DNA from: a virus
Lineage: Duplodnaviria > Heunggongvirae > Uroviricota > Caudoviricetes
Length of the DNA: 8,160 nt
Virus record (IMG/VR): IMGVR_UViG_2671180778_000006
Strand: one strand, 5' to 3'
A program made the position numbers and the translations under genes. Each line of letters starts with the position of its first letter. Position 1 is the stretch's first letter. Below are positions 1 through 8,160 of this stretch, one piece after another. The notes beneath the pieces are model-generated. The model was not told the origin of the DNA and did not search any database. It was given only the letters and a program-made list of their open reading frames with translations.

Positions 1-131
1 TGAAGACGTAAAGCTTCAGTGATCCAGGTCCGGTGTTTCATACGATAGTGTCCATTAAAAATGATGGACATTATTTTTGTAGAGCCGGAGGAAACAGACC
101 AGACGGTTTAAATGAGCCGGTTACGAAAAAA

Positions 132-395: not shown

Positions 396-1745
396 TCACT
401 TAAATTCAAATACGTGCGTAGTTGATGAGATTATATAATTAGGTGGTAAGTATTGAACTATTTCTCCATCTTCTTCAAAAATATGAATAACTCTTGGGAA
501 TAATTCAGGGCGTATAGGATTTAATGCCTTCGGATTATGAAACATGTATATTGCTGTACACCATGGTTCTTGATATGAAGGTGCATTGACAAGAGCAGTA
601 AAAGGCATTGGGGTACAGCCTTCATCAGTTTTAATACCTCTAACGATGGATTTGACATTTTTTTGTTCAATCCCTGCCACTACTCCCATCCTATCAAATT
701 TTGGGATGGTGGCATGTGTCGCAAGTAATATGGCTGAGACATTCTCATTTTTATTAGAGCCGAAAAAATTAGATTGTATACTTCGATTTTCAAATAAATG
801 TTGTTCAATTTTACTTCCAGAATCCATATCTACACCATACAGATAGCTTTGTAGTGCTGGCATTGATATACTCATCGAAAATCTGCGTGAGTAATCGTGT
901 AAAGCAATAATGAAAGGCTTTCCTTTTGTATGATCTAGTTCCCAATAGCATAATTTTAAGGGTTCAGGTTTATGCCTAACTTTCTTTAATAGAGTGCGGG
1001 CAAATTTGAATGGCATTTGTTCTTTTACATATCTCTGAAGATCTTCTACTGCCTCATGATCAAGTATCAATTTCTCGGTAGGTTCCTCTTGTTCTGCAAC
1101 TGTGGCAGCTTCTACAGCAATATCAATGCCATTTTTTGAGATAATATAATCAGGTTGAGCATAATCTCTGCATATTACGAAATCCATTTCGTAGAAAACT
1201 GCGTTTAGATAAAGTTCGAATAAGCGAGAGTTAAATGAAGCACTCTGGAAATCTCTGATGAATATTCCATCAGGATCTTTACACCAATAAGCTAACTCTT
1301 GCATAACAATAAATGCAGGATAGTGTTTGGGTTCCTCAAGTAGCATTCTTAGATAAACGTTTTTTTTATGTTCTGGAACTTTGGCTAGGAATATTGAAAA
1401 TGCCGACTCTGATTCGTCACCCTGTATAAAACAACCGTTCTTGTGTAGTGATAATAGCTCTGGTATGGCTTTTTCCATATCAGTAATTAAATCATCTTTA
1501 GATTCACGGGATACAATTACTTTAATCGCTCTAAATTTTTTATCTAAATCCCTACCTAGAAATATAGCGTTGTAATCATTATCTATTTTACAAAAAACAA
1601 TTGTTGCTAAGATCGTGACATCATCCTTTATAAATTTGAACCAACAGATTTCCTCCGAAAAGGTTTTTACGTATGGTGTACGACCATAGAAAAATACATC
1701 AAATTGTTCTTTACTGATTTCTAGCATTTTGTGACTTGTTGTCAT
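396..1745 (-). CDS. Hypothetical 449-aa protein, family not recognised; candidate effector of a cargo (possibly anti-phage) operon
   Basis: Uninterrupted 1350-nt ORF with ATG start and an upstream AAGGA Shine-Dalgarno at 7-nt spacing. It starts 23 nt downstream of the RHH gene on the same strand. Composition is markedly AT-rich compared with the roughly balanced flanking genes. By eye there is no Walker A, HEPN Rx4-6H, HNH or transmembrane signature. Confidence 0.85.
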   Translation of the reverse strand: MTTSHKMLEISKEQFDVFFYGRTPYVKTFSEEICWFKFIKDDVTILATIVFCKIDNDYNAIFLGRDLDKKFRAIKVIVSRESKDDLITDMEKAIPELLSLHKNGCFIQGDESESAFSIFLAKVPEHKKNVYLRMLLEEPKHYPAFIVMQELAYWCKDPDGIFIRDFQSASFNSRLFELYLNAVFYEMDFVICRDYAQPDYIISKNGIDIAVEAATVAEQEEPTEKLILDHEAVEDLQRYVKEQMPFKFARTLLKKVRHKPEPLKLCYWELDHTKGKPFIIALHDYSRRFSMSISMPALQSYLYGVDMDSGSKIEQHLFENRSIQSNFFGSNKNENVSAILLATHATIPKFDRMGVVAGIEQKNVKSIVRGIKTDEGCTPMPFTALVNAPSYQEPWCTAIYMFHNPKALNPIRPELFPRVIHIFEEDGEIVQYLPPNYIISSTTHVFEFK

Positions 1746-1768: not shown

Positions 1769-1963
1769 TCAGCCTTTAGGTGTTATTCCTTGTTTTATTA
1801 GTTCGGCACGAGCCAGTTCTTTTAGCCAGTTACCTAAGCTCATCCCTTCTTTGGCAGCGACATTAACCATTTGTTCTTTTAATTCTGGGTTAATACGGAC
1901 TTGGAATGCTGGTGCTTTACCTGCACCTTTCGGTTGTTTATCACGTTGAATGATAGTTGACAT
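1769..1963 (-). CDS. Ribbon-helix-helix (Arc/MetJ/CopG-like) DNA-binding protein, probable operon regulator
   Basis: 64 aa. FQVRINPELKEQMVNVAAKEGMSLGNWLKELARAEL matches the beta-strand plus two-helix RHH pattern (compare Arc and Mnt repressors). ATG at 1961-1963 on the minus strand with AGGU about 9 nt upstream in the mRNA. First gene of the leftward operon. Confidence 0.7.
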   Translation of the reverse strand: MSTIIQRDKQPKGAGKAPAFQVRINPELKEQMVNVAAKEGMSLGNWLKELARAELIKQGITPKG

Positions 1964-2914: not shown

Positions 2915-3214
2915 ATGGAAATGAAAAATTCTGGCTTTATTGCCAGCGGCCCCGCTCGGCCTGAATTTATGAACGGCGATATTTACCGCGATAAATACGG
3001 CGGCACGGTAACGATTAAAGGCGTGGCAGAACGGCGCATCACTTACCGCCGTGAGGGGTATAGCTATGACTGCGTGATGCCTGTTTATCAGTTCCGGCGT
3101 GATTTTTCCCTGGTATATGCCGCACCCCGCAGTAAGCCCATCAGCAGGGAAAAAGCGCGGGGAAACATCCAGAAAATGAAAAGCATGATTAACGCATTCA
3201 GGGGCAAAAAATGA
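2915..3214 (+). CDS. Hypothetical protein (99 aa) upstream of the primase
   Basis: ATG with GAGGA Shine-Dalgarno at 2901-2905. Its stop overlaps the primase start (ATGA at 3211-3214), implying translational coupling. Confidence 0.5.
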   Translation: MEMKNSGFIASGPARPEFMNGDIYRDKYGGTVTIKGVAERRITYRREGYSYDCVMPVYQFRRDFSLVYAAPRSKPISREKARGNIQKMKSMINAFRGKK

Positions 3215-4962
3215 AACTGGCACCGAACTTAAAAAAACAGCCACGCGACAGACTGACAGAGGTAATCATCTTTGCAGGTAGTGATGCGTGGAGCCATGCG
3301 AAAGAGTGGCGGGAATGGGCGGGTAAACATATTGCCGCCGACGATGTGCCGCCTGTCGTGCTGGCTGATGAGCAACTGAAAAATATCACCGATTACCGGA
3401 TCATTGATGAAGATCGTCAGTGTGTGCGTGTTTACCGCGCAGGACATATCACAGAGCACAGCATGACGCAGATTGTTACGTTACTGGCTGTGGCTGGAGT
3501 GAAGACCGTACACGAATACGCGGGGATTACTGACACCAGCCCAGTGGATTTATCCGAGCAGTTGCCGCGACTCAAAGAGGAATGCGAGCGTGGGGAAAGT
3601 CTGGTGCTTAATCTTCCGACGAAGCAAAAGGCGCAACTTTCACAGATGGCAGACAGTGAACGTGCACAACTACTTGCCGATCGCTTTGATGGTGTGTGTG
3701 TTCATGCAGAAAGTGAAATCGTCCACGTATGGCGCGGCGGGGTATGGTGTCCGGTCAGCACAATGGAGCTGAGCCGCGAAATGGTGGCGATCTATTCAGA
3801 GCACAGGGCCACGTTCAGCAAACGTGTAATCAATAACGCCGTGGAAGCGTTAAAAGTTATTGCCGACCCCATGGGGGAGCCGTCCGGTGATTTGCTACCG
3901 TTCACTAATGGTGTGCTTAACCTGAAAACGGGGGAATTTTCTCCGCACTCGCCGGAGCACTGGAGCACCACGCACAATGGCATTGAGTACACGCCACCAG
4001 TAGCAGGGGAAAACATCCGCGATAATGCGCCAAATTTCCATAAATGGCTTGAACATGCTGCAAGAAAAGACCCGCGTAAGATGATGCGTATATGTGCCGC
4101 GTTATACATGATTATGGCGAACCGCTACGACTGGCAGATGTTCATTGAGGCCACCGGAGACGGGGGAAGCGGTAAGAGTACATTTACCCATATTGCCACC
4201 CTGCTTGCTGGCAAACAGAACACCGTAAGCGCGGAGATGACATCACTCGATGATGCAGGAGGGCGCGCGCAGGTTGTCGGGAGTCGTCTTATCGTCCTTG
4301 CCGATCAGCCGAAATATACGGGGGAAGGCACGGGCATCAAGAAAATCACGGGAGGCGATCCCGTTGAAATTAACCCGAAATATGAGCAGCGATTCACGAC
4401 GATAATAAGGGCGGTGGTACTGGCAACCAATAACGACCCGATGATCTTTACCGAACGGGCCGGAGGTGTGTCACGCCGTCGGGTGATTTTCCGGTTCGAC
4501 AACATTGTAAGGGAGGACGAAAAAGACAAGGAATTACCGGAAAAGATAGCGGCAGAAATCCCCGTAATTATCCGCCGCTTGCTGGCTAATTTTGCTGCCC
4601 CTGAAAAGGCACGGGCTTTATTACTGGAACAGCGTGACGGTGATGAAGCTCTGGCAATAAAGCAGCAAACGGATCCGGTTGTTGAGCTTTGCGCGGCGCT
4701 GGAGTTTCTGGAGGAAGCTCGTGGGCTAATGATGGGCGGTGGTGGTGACACCGTGAAGTACACGACCAGAAACAGCCTTTACCGTGTCTATATGGCCTTC
4801 ATGGCATACACAGGAAAGGGGAAATGTTTGAGCGTGAATGAGTTCGGAAAGGCTATGAGGTCAGCGGCGAAAGTTTACGGATATGAATATATTACGCGAA
4901 AAGTTAAGGGAGTCACGCAGACCAACGCAACGACTACTGATGATTGCGATGCGTTTTTATAA
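3211..4962 (+). CDS. Phage/plasmid primase-helicase, P4 / D5-like family (satellite pri-rep replication initiator)
   Basis: 583 aa. Walker A GDGGSGKST (4156-4182) and Walker B-like LIVLAD. The LLPFTNGVLNLKTGEFSPHSPEHWST block is typical of the D5-N / P4-type primase C-terminal region. An iteron array follows directly downstream. No primase catalytic motif was recognised in the first ~170 residues. Confidence 0.8.
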   Translation: MKLAPNLKKQPRDRLTEVIIFAGSDAWSHAKEWREWAGKHIAADDVPPVVLADEQLKNITDYRIIDEDRQCVRVYRAGHITEHSMTQIVTLLAVAGVKTVHEYAGITDTSPVDLSEQLPRLKEECERGESLVLNLPTKQKAQLSQMADSERAQLLADRFDGVCVHAESEIVHVWRGGVWCPVSTMELSREMVAIYSEHRATFSKRVINNAVEALKVIADPMGEPSGDLLPFTNGVLNLKTGEFSPHSPEHWSTTHNGIEYTPPVAGENIRDNAPNFHKWLEHAARKDPRKMMRICAALYMIMANRYDWQMFIEATGDGGSGKSTFTHIATLLAGKQNTVSAEMTSLDDAGGRAQVVGSRLIVLADQPKYTGEGTGIKKITGGDPVEINPKYEQRFTTIIRAVVLATNNDPMIFTERAGGVSRRRVIFRFDNIVREDEKDKELPEKIAAEIPVIIRRLLANFAAPEKARALLLEQRDGDEALAIKQQTDPVVELCAALEFLEEARGLMMGGGGDTVKYTTRNSLYRVYMAFMAYTGKGKCLSVNEFGKAMRSAAKVYGYEYITRKVKGVTQTNATTTDDCDAFL

Positions 4963-7221: not shown

Positions 7222-7563
7222 ATGGCTACTCATTACACTGAACTCATGGCTGGCACTGAAGCACTGGTGACTACGCTGGGGATATTTTCAGCTAATAAAG
7301 GGGTAATTCCTGCATTTACGCCACTGATGCAGGAAGATGCAACAGGTGCACTGGTGGTATGGGATGGTTCGAGCGTAGGTAAAGCGGTTTATGTTTCCGC
7401 TGTACAAATCGACACCGCGAAAAAAACACAGGCTCAGGTCTATAAGACAGGTGTCTTAAATGTTGATGCTCTGAACTGGCCTGAGTCTGTAAAAGAACTG
7501 TCAGTAAAGATTGCAGCGTTTGTTGGCTCAGGTATTTCTGTTCAGCCGCTGGCTCGTGTGTAA
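7222..7563 (+). CDS. Head decoration protein, phage lambda gpD-like
   Basis: 113 aa. AFTPLMQEDATGALVVWDGS ... VYKTGVLNVDALNWPE ... AAFVGSGISV aligns with recalled lambda gpD ([20 protein letters not shown] ... FYKSGTFRYEDVLWPE ... TAFAGTAISIV). GGGGGAG Shine-Dalgarno upstream. Confidence 0.8.
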   Translation: MATHYTELMAGTEALVTTLGIFSANKGVIPAFTPLMQEDATGALVVWDGSSVGKAVYVSAVQIDTAKKTQAQVYKTGVLNVDALNWPESVKELSVKIAAFVGSGISVQPLARV

Positions 7564-7574
7564 AGGGGGATACA

Positions 7575-7958
7575 ATGCAAAATGATTACAATGACCTTAA
7601 GCCAATTGCCGAAATGATGTACCCGAATCCAGCTGTAGAGGAATTAAAAGCTATCGCTGACAAAATGTGTTTAAGCGAGCGCCTTGTTGATATGAATCAG
7701 GTGATGGAAATTACAACCCTGAGTCGGCGTACACTGCTAAACCTTGAGGCTAGTGGAGAGTTCCCGGAGCGTGTGCAGGTTACGGAAGGGCGTAAGGCCT
7801 GGTATTTAAGTGAAGTGATCGACTGGATAAATAATATTCCTCGCGCTTCTGAATATTGCCGCGTACCTGTCCCAAAAAAGCCAGATGCGGCGCTATGCCT
7901 CAAGATTGAGCGTGTACGCCGCAATGCACGGGATGGTCGCTATAAGCTGATTGGTTGA
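7575..7958 (+). CDS. AlpA-like HTH domain protein (127 aa); regulator or candidate packaging-specificity factor
   Basis: Residues about 40-95 (MNQVMEITTLSRRTLLNLEASGEFPERVQVTEGRKAWYLSEVIDWI) fit the AlpA-type HTH pattern, with extra N- and C-terminal extensions. AGGGGG Shine-Dalgarno upstream. Sits immediately 5' of the cos site. Confidence 0.6.
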   Translation: MQNDYNDLKPIAEMMYPNPAVEELKAIADKMCLSERLVDMNQVMEITTLSRRTLLNLEASGEFPERVQVTEGRKAWYLSEVIDWINNIPRASEYCRVPVPKKPDAALCLKIERVRRNARDGRYKLIG

Positions 7959-7965
7959 TGAAATT

Positions 7966-8160
7966 AGGGCCCGCTCTGGCTGGCGGGTCCTTTCCGGCGA
8001 TCTGACAGGCTACGGGGCGTCAGGCGCGCGGATTTTCGCTATTTATGAAAATTTTCCGGTTTAAGGCGTTTCCGTTCTTCTTCGTCGTAACTTAATGTTT
8101 TTATTTAAAATACCCCCTGAAAAGAAAGGAAACGACAGGTGCTGAAAGCGAGCTTTTTGG
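7966..8160 (+). other. Lambda-type cos site (cosQ-side flank, cosN at about 8015-8026, cosB R3/I1/R2 region) running off the window end
   Basis: 8027-8160 is nearly identical to my recollection of the lambda left end (CGCGGGTTTTCGCTATTTATGAAAATTTTCCGGTTTAAGGCGTTTCCGTTCTTCTTCGTCATAACTTAATG...GAAAGGAAACGACAGGTGCTGAAAGCGAG). 7971-8014 resembles the lambda right end (...GGGTCCTTTCCGGTGATCCGACAGGTTACG). The 12 nt at the cosN position read GGGCGTCAGGCG against lambda GGGCGGCGACCT. Confidence 0.8.

What the first reader, a model, noticed from the sequence alone, without database searches (positions are those of the whole stretch)
7966..8160. Lambda-like cos site with near-identical cosB but a different sequence at the cosN cohesive-end position
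The cosB-like region matches my recollection of lambda almost base for base, so helper small terminase should bind. The 12 nt at the cosN position read GGGCGTCAGGCG, differing from lambda GGGCGGCGACCT at 5 of 12 positions. If real, the satellite's cohesive ends differ from the helper's while its terminase-binding sites are conserved, which bears on packaging specificity. The comparison is from memory and needs verification.
Basis: partly seen in the sequence, partly recalled or inferred. Interest (0 to 1): 0.55.

Follow-up and report, generated by a model that had tools for sequence, protein, structure and literature searches.

The report
Satellite lambda-type cos, variant sticky ends
The window ends in a genuine lambda-type DNA-packaging (cos) site of a phage satellite whose 12-base sticky end differs at 5 positions from lambda's and from its own helper prophage's, but this looks like a tolerated natural allele that lambda-type terminase also uses in real phages, not a packaging-specificity switch.

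Summary
Window 8015-8026 reads GGGCGTCAGGCG where lambda has GGGCGGCGACCT (positions 6, 8, 9, 10 and 12 differ). cosQ, the CG pairs flanking both nick sites, all spacings, R3 and R2 are as in lambda.

The window is a helper-embedded satellite (HES/PICI type). In near-identical copies elsewhere it sits inside gene E of a lambda-like prophage. In six such composites the helper's own cos is canonical, so satellite and helper ends really differ.

The "packaging specificity" reading is not supported:
- The same allele occurs at ordinary lambda-like prophage cos sites with gpA 99.4% identical to lambda's.
- A deposited phage (PhiR46_1) uses GGGCGGAAGGCG, also 5 of 12 different, with gpA 638/641 identical to lambda's.
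- Satellites of this family are polymorphic: 53 carry this allele, 40 the canonical one, 11 GGAAGGCG.

The best reading is a functional cos cut by helper terminase at the usual positions and carrying a tolerated allele inherited with the satellite's left flank. That allele is far commoner in satellites than in phages. Satellite and helper ends should barely anneal. Whether that matters is untested.

The parts
7575..7958 (+). AlpA-family winged-helix gene (127 aa) that ends 8 nt before the cos inverted repeat. It serves as the marker of this satellite family's cos left flank.
   Evidence: Pfam PF05930, E = 7.6e-9. The best solved structure is an AlpA-family regulator, 8c3t, and no Rpp structure matched at E <= 1. 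The gene lies 435 nt upstream of the variant cosN in 51 of 57 IMG/VR contigs.
7967..7990 (.). Imperfect inverted repeat GGGCCCGC-(8 nt)-GCGGGTCC whose right arm overlaps cosQ. Its role is unknown; it might be a weak stem-loop after the AlpA-like gene.
   Evidence: Read directly from the sequence. The terminator consensus scan did not call it.
7985..7991 (+). cosQ heptamer GGGTCCT (packaging termination element), at the position of lambda 48473-48479. The cosQ coordinates in lambda are from my own knowledge.
   Evidence: Identical sequence and identical distance to cosN as in lambda. Invariant in all cos sites surveyed.
8013..8028 (.). cosN, 16 bp: CG | GGGCGTCAGGCG | CG. Inferred nicks lie between 8014/8015 on the top strand and 8026/8027 on the bottom strand.
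   Evidence: Alignment to the experimentally defined lambda left end. The flanking CG dinucleotides and positions 1-5 and 11 are conserved, and the spacings to cosQ and R3 are unchanged. The nick positions themselves are inferred, not shown.
8015..8026 (+). Predicted 12-nt 5' cohesive end GGGCGTCAGGCG. It differs from lambda and from the helper at positions 6, 8, 9, 10 and 12.
   Evidence: Predicted self-duplex -18.7 kcal/mol, against -9.1 to -9.3 when paired with the lambda end.
8064..8079 (+). cosB R3 (small-terminase binding site), AGGCGTTTCCGTTCTT, corresponding to lambda bp 50-65.
   Evidence: Identical to lambda. R3 extent taken from PMC9026076.
8080..8122 (.). R3-R2 spacer, which in lambda holds the IHF site I1. 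Two substitutions relative to lambda (window 8087 and 8116).
   Evidence: Alignment. The position of I1 is taken from the element order R3-I1-R2-R1 in PMC9026076; IHF binding was not tested.
8123..8138 (-). cosB R2 (inverted R element), AGAAAGGAAACGACAG on the + strand, corresponding to lambda bp 109-124.
   Evidence: Identical to lambda.
8139..8160 (.). Start of the R2-R1 spacer. The window ends here. R1 and a satellite-encoded Nu1-like terS follow in near-identical loci.
   Evidence: L007 matches the window from nt 125 onward with 2 SNPs. There R1 is identical to lambda and a 183-aa TerS starts 190 nt after cosN nt 1.

Best explanation
Window 7985-8160 is the functional cos site of a helper-embedded, PICI-like satellite. 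It was captured from, and keeps recombining with, lambda-like phages.

Inferred mechanism. Small terminase binds R3/R2/R1. That protein is either the helper's Nu1, which is 99% identical to lambda's, or the satellite's own Nu1-like protein, which has the same first ~102 residues. IHF bends the spacer. The helper's lambda-type large terminase (gpA) is thereby placed on cosN. It nicks at the lambda positions, between 8014/8015 on the top strand and 8026/8027 on the bottom strand. This gives 12-nt ends that are self-complementary, so the satellite DNA can circularise normally.

The 12-mer GGGCGTCAGGCG is a naturally occurring, tolerated allele of cosN. Every base known or inferred to matter is kept: the CG flanks, GGGCG at positions 1-5, and C11. 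The changes fall at positions that terminase anchored on cosB does not read. The allele is common in this satellite lineage because it is inherited with the satellite's cosQ-side flank. It is not a packaging-specificity determinant.

A side effect is that satellite and helper ends are not mutually cohesive.
For: Shown:
- cos identity and anatomy.
- The satellite and helper cos sites within one prophage carry different cosN in L003/L011, L007-L010 and the published model HES 11capE of E. coli NRG857c.
- The helper gpA N-terminal 163 residues are identical to lambda's.
- The same allele lies at lambda-like prophage cos sites without satellite genes. L175 has Nu1 98.3%, full-length gpA 99.4%, portal 99.4% and an intact gpE. 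L141 and L186 have Nu1 99.4% and the gpA N-terminus 100%.
- Deposited phage PhiR46_1 (host listed as ECOR13) has GGGCGGAAGGCG, which shares the right half AGGCG, with gpA 638/641 identical to lambda's.
- A helper with GGAAGGCG and a helper with the canonical allele have gpA 629/641 identical.
- A satellite-anchored survey gives 53 variant, 40 canonical, 11 GGAAGGCG and 2 other alleles. In that survey the variant allele occurs with 7 left-flank and 7 right-flank haplotypes, and with no terS, a chimeric terS or another terS downstream.

From the literature:
- Changes at bp 7-12 mostly have minimal effect, and lambda TerL nicks a cosN changed in its right half efficiently.
- N15 and phiD326 differ at positions 9 and 12, and Gifsy-1 at 8, 9 and 11.
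- The CG flanks and the left half are under selection.
- Terminases show no cosN specificity (PMC4669245).
- mEp213/LLS has GGGCGGCGCGCT (PMC12315714).
Against: - No end sequence of packaged satellite DNA is available, so the nick positions and cleavage efficiency are inferred.
- Position 6 (G to T) lies in the left half, which the literature regards as constrained. Its tolerance rests only on its occurrence at prophage cos sites.
- Prophages carrying the allele could be defective.
- The allele is about 50% in satellites, against 0 of 76 phage-context sites in the open scan and 3 clear phage contexts among the 57 IMG/VR contigs holding the allele. Linkage explains this enrichment, but selection would too.
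- The sharp clustering of differences around cosN within otherwise ~99% identical DNA is not what uniform drift gives. It needs either relaxed constraint plus recombination of the flanks, or selection.
Confidence: 0.68

Rival explanations
1. Adaptive cohesive-end incompatibility. The satellite lineage keeps a cosN allele whose overhang cannot anneal to the helper's. Satellite DNA then does not join helper DNA. Chromosomes started at the satellite cos and ended at a helper cos (or the reverse) in unexcised composites cannot circularise.
For: - The allele is strongly enriched in satellites: 53 of 106 satellite-type cos sites, against 0 of 76 phage-context sites in the open scan.
- Six helper-satellite composites are mismatched at 5 of 12 positions.
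- The predicted heteroduplex is about -9 kcal/mol, against -19 for matched ends. The 2-nt lambda/N15 mismatch computes at -15 and costs a 4-fold yield loss experimentally (PMC4669245).
- In 11capE/61icd the satellite cos lies 15.1 kb after the helper cos. In a 61-kb composite, the distance from the satellite cos to the next helper cos would be about 46 kb, which is packageable by my own knowledge of lambda capacity.
Against: - 38% of sibling satellites carry the canonical allele.
- The enrichment is fully explained by inheritance with the satellite's left flank.
- No fitness benefit to the satellite from killing hybrid chromosomes is evident.
- The allele also sits at ordinary prophage cos sites.
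Confidence: 0.15
2. Specificity switch. The variant cosN is cut poorly by helper terminase alone. It needs a satellite factor that retargets gpA, either the chimeric Nu1-like TerS just downstream or the AlpA-like protein just upstream. This would be analogous to Rpp redirecting TerS.
For: - The satellite encodes a TerS with a lambda DNA-binding half and a C-terminal half only about 37-41% identical to lambda's. No deposited phage carries that half at more than 41% identity.
- All 8 chimeric-terS satellites surveyed carry the variant allele.
- The AlpA-like gene is always adjacent.
Against: - 31 satellites with the same allele have no terS, and 9 have a different terS.
- 11capE keeps only 13 Nu1 codons.
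- Lambda-like prophages carry the allele with no satellite genes nearby and with lambda-type Nu1 and gpA.
- The literature finds no cosN specificity for lambda-like terminases.
- The AlpA-like protein does not match Rpp structures.
Confidence: 0.07
3. Decaying relic. The cos in this window is no longer used, and the cosN changes are damage.
For: In this particular copy an IS66-family element abuts the alpA gene at nt 1-124, where related copies have the integrase gene. The HES authors could not detect virions of their model helper.
Against: - The identical 12-mer recurs in 57 IMG/VR contigs, and 73 complete E. coli genomes match the 67-nt cosQ-cosN segment at 90% identity or more. cosQ, the CG flanks, the spacing and the R elements are conserved across many flank haplotypes.
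- The changes avoid every position known to matter.
Confidence: 0.05

Closest known systems
Bacteriophage lambda cos (cosQ-cosN-cosB; NC_001416)
   Same: Same order, spacing and sequence of cosQ, nick-flanking CG pairs, R3, the spacer that holds I1, and R2 (R1 lies just beyond the window). 93.8% identity over 177 nt.
   Different: The cohesive-end 12-mer differs at positions 6, 8, 9, 10 and 12. There are three further changes at -12, -5 and +18. Upstream of cosQ the sequence is satellite DNA, not the lambda right arm.
Natural cosN alleles of lambda-like phages: N15 and phiD326 (positions 9, 12), Gifsy-1 (8, 9, 11), mEp213/LLS (9, 10), PhiR46_1 (7, 8, 9, 10, 12)
   Same: Variation is concentrated in the right half. 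GGGCG at positions 1-5 and the CG flanks are kept. The alleles are used with lambda-type large terminases.
   Different: This allele adds a change at position 6 and is 5 of 12 different from lambda. I found it in no deposited phage genome, where the best match to the 67-nt cosQ-cosN segment is 92.5%, and not in the searchable literature as a cos sequence. Vahanian et al. 2017 (Virology 509:140) could not be read.
Helper-embedded satellite 11capE of E. coli NRG857c (Tommasini, Mageeney and Williams, bioRxiv 10.1101/2022.07.18.500453)
   Same: Same satellite family, same AlpA-like gene followed by cos, same cosN allele GGGCGTCAGGCG and the same left flank. It is embedded in gene E of a lambda-like prophage whose cos is canonical.
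   Different: 11capE has a cosB only about 90% lambda-like and just 13 codons of Nu1. The window type has a nearly lambda-identical cosB followed by a full chimeric terS. The preprint notes only a 258-bp, 90% match to the helper cos and does not mention cosN.
EcCICFT073 cos1 with Rpp (Fillol-Salom et al. 2019, PMC6739421)
   Same: A satellite of lambda-like phages that is packaged from its own cos by helper terminase.
   Different: The pattern is the opposite. There, cosQ and cosN resemble the phage's, cosB is unrelated, and Rpp retargets TerS. Here cosB is lambda's and cosN differs, and no Rpp was detected.
SaPI-encoded small terminase (pac-type Gram-positive PICIs)
   Same: A satellite encodes a TerS but no TerL, so that TerS presumably works with the helper's TerL. 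This is inferred for the gene just beyond the window.
   Different: The SaPI TerS recognises a satellite-specific pac site. Here the DNA-binding half is identical to the helper's Nu1 and the cosB is the helper's, so it gives no obvious discrimination.

Membership tests
Lambda-like cos site (12-nt 5' cohesive ends) | cosQ heptamer about 30 bp upstream of the top-strand nick | tested here: met
   GGGTCCT at 7985-7991, at the same distance as in lambda.
Lambda-like cos site (12-nt 5' cohesive ends) | [quoted passage not shown] | tested here: met
   CG at 8013-8014 and 8027-8028. Positions 1-5 read GGGCG and position 11 reads C. Position 6 differs.
Lambda-like cos site (12-nt 5' cohesive ends) | cosB with R3, an IHF site, R2 and R1 at fixed spacing from cosN | tested here: met
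   R3 and R2 are identical to lambda and correctly spaced within the window. R1 is seen only in near-identical loci beyond the window end. IHF binding was not tested.
Lambda-like cos site (12-nt 5' cohesive ends) | A Nu1-family small terminase gene starting about 190 nt after the cohesive end | tested here: met
   In L007 and similar loci a 183-aa Nu1-family ORF starts at +190. It lies outside the window.
Lambda-like cos site (12-nt 5' cohesive ends) | Staggered nicks 12 bp apart, shown on packaged DNA | not testable with these tools
   This needs terminus sequencing of virion DNA or a cos-cleavage assay.
Rpp-type PICI cos (EcCICFT073-like) | A cosB unrelated to the helper phage's R elements | tested here: not met
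   cosB here is nearly identical to lambda's, whereas PMC6739421 describes no identifiable phage cosB.
Rpp-type PICI cos (EcCICFT073-like) | An rpp gene next to cos | tested here: not met
   The gene downstream is a Nu1-family TerS. The upstream 127-aa protein is AlpA-family and matches no Rpp structure at E <= 1.
Helper-embedded satellite (HES) / Gram-negative PICI | Gene content and order: alpA, a variable zone, primase/SSB, then captured late genes (capsid), all co-oriented | tested here: met
   alpA, DUF4222, a D5-type primase, SSB, gpE-like and gpD-like genes are present.
Helper-embedded satellite (HES) / Gram-negative PICI | [quoted passage not shown] | tested here: inconclusive
   This holds for near-identical copies, which sit in gene E of lambda-like prophages. 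The window itself starts with an IS66-family end and contains neither int nor an att site.

The most novel reading that the evidence does not exclude
Satellites of lambda-like phages are selected to carry sticky ends that do not pair with their helper's ("cohesive-end isolation"). Under this reading cosN, long treated as a passive cutting site whose right half drifts freely, is a locus of satellite-helper conflict. It would also be a physical recombination junction at which satellites and helpers swap cos halves.
Probability: 0.13. Interest if true: 0.6.

Novelty: new member of a known kind. Interest (0 to 1): 0.3.

Why it matters
It gives a natural test of how much of cosN lambda terminase actually reads. 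An allele that differs from lambda at 5 of 12 positions, one of them in the left half, is paired with gpA 99.4% identical to lambda's. That supports the published view that terminase anchored on cosB nicks by position rather than by sequence.

For satellite biology it shows two things. Helper-embedded satellites, including the published model 11capE, and their helpers usually make non-complementary ends. The cos module of these satellites is also mosaic. Practically, anyone mapping satellite termini or building cos-based transduction tools from these elements should not assume lambda ends.

Tried and rejected
- Scanning one genome per species for TACG+12-mer+CGC gave 11 hits. All were chance matches in unrelated GC-rich or MAG contigs with no cos context, so this gave no information on host range.
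- A sequence search of the AlpA-like protein against solved structures, looking for Rpp, returned only an AlpA regulator. The idea that it is an Rpp was dropped.
- The promoter/terminator scan of 7500-8160 found nothing. The inverted repeat over cosQ remains unexplained.
- Vahanian et al. 2017, the survey of natural cosN variation, is not held. A literature search for the 12-mer found one irrelevant paper.
- A homologue search with the C-terminal half of the satellite TerS returned only 7 short proteins. The Klebsiella ones lie in islands without a TerL, so no phage donor of that domain was identified.
- A clean recombination breakpoint exactly at the nick sites was considered. Positions 13-20 are mixed between lambda-like and 11capE-like states, so this was not claimed.
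- The megablast count cannot see canonical cos sites because it needs a 28-nt exact word. It was therefore not used as a frequency estimate.

Full report

Yes. Window 7940-8160 hits lambda and about 100 lambda-like phage records (lambda: 93.8% over 177 nt, E = 2e-70). I fetched NC_001416 and aligned the joined ends. The match runs without gaps from lambda 48473 through the cohesive end to lambda 138, apart from a one-base deletion near window 8152. The 12 nt at the place of lambda nt 1-12 are GGGCGTCAGGCG (window 8015-8026) against GGGCGGCGACCT. They differ at positions 6, 8, 9, 10 and 12.

The following features are unchanged from lambda:
- cosQ, GGGTCCT at 7985-7991;
- the CG pairs flanking both nick positions;
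- the cosQ-cosN and cosN-R3 spacings;
- R3 (8064-8079) and R2 (8123-8138).

Downstream of cosN the window has only three substitutions relative to lambda (+18, +73, +102). The window ends before R1.

**2. What is the element?**

The window encodes the following:
- an AlpA regulator;
- a 449-aa protein on the minus strand that matches the PD-T7-1 defence family (E = 1e-153);
- a DUF4222 protein;
- a D5-type primase and an SSB;
- a gpE-like capsid protein and a gpD-like decoration protein;
- a second AlpA-family gene (7575-7958), which ends just before cos.

A look-up of the 449-aa protein returned loci that match the window from nt 125 onward with two SNPs. In these loci, and in complete genomes, the element sits inside, and is co-oriented with, gene E of a lambda-like prophage. 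That is the helper-embedded satellite (HES) configuration described by Tommasini et al.. The first 124 nt of the window are the end of an IS66-family element.

Immediately beyond the window end these loci carry R1, identical to lambda, and a 183-aa Nu1-family gene. Its first ~102 codons are nearly identical to lambda Nu1 at the DNA level. Its last ~80 residues are only about 37-41% identical.

**3. Satellite versus helper**

Six composites contain both cos sites: L003/L011, L007, L008, L009, L010, and the published model 11capE/50icd of E. coli NRG857c (L240). In each, the helper cos is canonical (GGGCGGCGACCT) and the satellite cos is GGGCGTCAGGCG. In a seventh (L006) the helper has GGGCGGAAGGCG and the satellite has GGGCGTCAGGCG.

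The differences are sharply clustered. Over 527 aligned nt between a satellite cos and its own helper's cos there are 15 differences. Eight lie between -12 and +18 (p = 2e-7) and five lie in the 12-mer (p = 6e-6).

**4. Does the difference bear on packaging specificity?**

The evidence says probably not.

(a) Literature. Feiss et al. 2015 (PMC4669245) report the following:
- many mutations at bp 7-12 have minimal effect;
- lambda TerL efficiently nicks a cosN changed in its right half;
- G2C is deleterious but the symmetric C11G is not;
- N15 and phiD326 differ naturally at positions 9 and 12, and Gifsy-1 at 8, 9 and 11;
- the CG flanks, cosQ and the left half are conserved;
- lambda and N15 terminases show no cosN preference.

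I confirmed that N15 starts GGGCGGCGTCCG. mEp213/LLS is reported as GGGCGGCGCGCT. Four of the five changes here are in the tolerated half, and G2, C11 and the flanks are kept.

(b) The allele is used by phage-type cos sites. Of the 57 IMG/VR contigs with TACG-GGGCGTCAGGCG-CGC, 51 have the satellite's AlpA-like gene 435 nt upstream. L141, L175 and L186 do not, and are ordinary lambda-like prophage cos sites. L150 shares L186's upstream flank, but its contig ends 189 nt after cosN. L175 has Nu1 98.3%, full-length gpA 99.4%, portal 99.4% and an intact gpE. L141's upstream flank is the lambda right arm.

(c) A deposited phage, PhiR46_1 (host listed as ECOR13), has GGGCGGAAGGCG. That allele is also 5 of 12 different from lambda and shares the right half AGGCG. 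Its gpA is 638/641 identical to lambda's. Helpers carrying GGAAGGCG and canonical cosN have gpA 629/641 identical, with half of the differences in the N-terminal 37 residues.

(d) Satellites are polymorphic. A scan anchored on the satellite-type left flank, with cosN left open, gave 53 GGGCGTCAGGCG, 40 canonical, 11 GGGCGGAAGGCG and 2 others. In that scan the variant allele is combined with 7 left-flank and 7 right-flank haplotypes. Downstream it is followed by no terS (31), another terS (9) or the chimeric terS (8). No satellite factor is therefore consistently linked to the allele except the adjacent AlpA-like gene, and the prophages in (b) lack that gene.

**5. What remains interesting**

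The allele is far commoner in satellites than in phages. It makes up about half of satellite-type cos sites. It has only 3 clear phage contexts among the 57 IMG/VR contigs that hold it. No deposited phage genome has it.

Inheritance with the satellite's cosQ-side flank is sufficient to explain this, and I rank that first. A selective reading cannot be excluded, however.

Predicted annealing of a satellite end to a lambda end is about -9 kcal/mol, against -19 for matched ends. The lambda/N15 pair, which costs a 4-fold yield loss experimentally, computes at -15. In 11capE/61icd the satellite cos lies 15.1 kb after the helper cos. In an unexcised 61-kb composite, a run from the satellite cos to the next helper cos would be about 46 kb. 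That size is packageable by my own knowledge of lambda capacity. It would yield ends mismatched at 5 of 12 positions. Whether any of this affects fitness is untested.

**6. Comparison with known systems**

- It is a lambda-like cos by every sequence criterion I could test. The nick positions are inferred.
- It is the opposite of the EcCICFT073/Rpp arrangement. There cosN and cosQ resemble the phage's, cosB does not, and Rpp retargets TerS. Here no Rpp was found.
- It belongs to the HES/PICI family, and its cosN allele and left flank are those of the published 11capE. The authors of that work noted only a 258-bp, 90% match to the helper cos.
- The allele is a further member of the known series of natural cosN variants. 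Its distinction is a change at position 6 and its association with satellites.

**7. Verdict**

The best explanation (confidence about 0.68) is a functional cos carrying a tolerated cosN allele, cut at the usual positions by helper lambda-type terminase positioned by small terminase on a lambda-identical cosB. Rivals:
- adaptive end incompatibility (0.15);
- a satellite-factor-dependent specificity switch (0.07);
- a decaying relic (0.05).

Interest is modest at 0.3. Decisive tests are terminus mapping of packaged satellite DNA and cosN-swap packaging assays.

Noticed in passing
just beyond the window end; L007 (minus strand) 2991-3542, L003 12245-12796: The satellite encodes its own Nu1-family small terminase (183 aa) and no large terminase. 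Residues 1-~102 (the DNA-binding and coiled-coil part) are nearly identical to lambda Nu1, also at the DNA level. The C-terminal ~80 residues are only about 37-41% identical; in lambda this part holds the self-assembly and gpA-binding regions. No deposited phage has this C-terminal half at more than 41% identity. Homologues at about 70% occur in Klebsiella islands that also lack a TerL. The HES preprint describes its model satellite as lacking terS.
   Followed up: partly
window 396-1745 (-) and 1769-1963 (-): The 449-aa cargo protein matches the PD-T7-1 anti-phage defence family (E = 1e-153) and has no Pfam hit. Together with the adjacent 64-aa ORF it recurs at 84% identity in Klebsiella loci L241/L242, next to a TerS-like remnant. 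This suggests a two-gene cassette that moves between satellites.
   Followed up: partly
window 1-124: These bases are the end of an IS66-family element (100% matches, up to 18 copies per E. coli genome, many on plasmids). It abuts the alpA gene, where related satellites have the integrase gene. L005 has an IS66-family insertion at about the same junction but with different sequence at the boundary. This copy may be impaired for excision.
   Followed up: partly
window 7967-7990: An imperfect 8-bp inverted repeat, GGGCCCGC...GCGGGTCC, has a right arm that contains most of cosQ. Its right arm and loop end (GGCTGGCGGGTCC) recur upstream of the surveyed satellite-type cos sites. It is absent from lambda, whose sequence upstream of cosQ is unrelated. 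No function is known.
   Followed up: no
L006 16767-18692 versus L007 16767-18692 (helper gpA): Helper large terminases that are otherwise about 98% identical differ in a cluster at residues 8-37. By my own knowledge of lambda, this is the region that binds the small terminase. It could reflect co-variation with TerS or pressure from satellites.
   Followed up: no
L240 18221-18415 (11capE of E. coli NRG857c): The 64-aa 'hypothetical protein' after the 11capE cos keeps only the first ~13 codons of Nu1 (MEVNKDQLADILG) and then becomes unrelated. Different satellites therefore have different breakpoints inside the captured Nu1 gene.
   Followed up: yes
IMG/VR loci, e.g. L083, L139, L144: Many sibling satellites carry a third kind of TerS, about 41-45% identical to both lambda Nu1 and the chimeric TerS in the C-terminal half, with a shorter leader. 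These mostly carry the canonical cosN (32 of 47). Three loci have the satellite's AlpA-like gene upstream but lambda Nu1 and gpA downstream, which may be satellite-helper cos recombinants.
   Followed up: no
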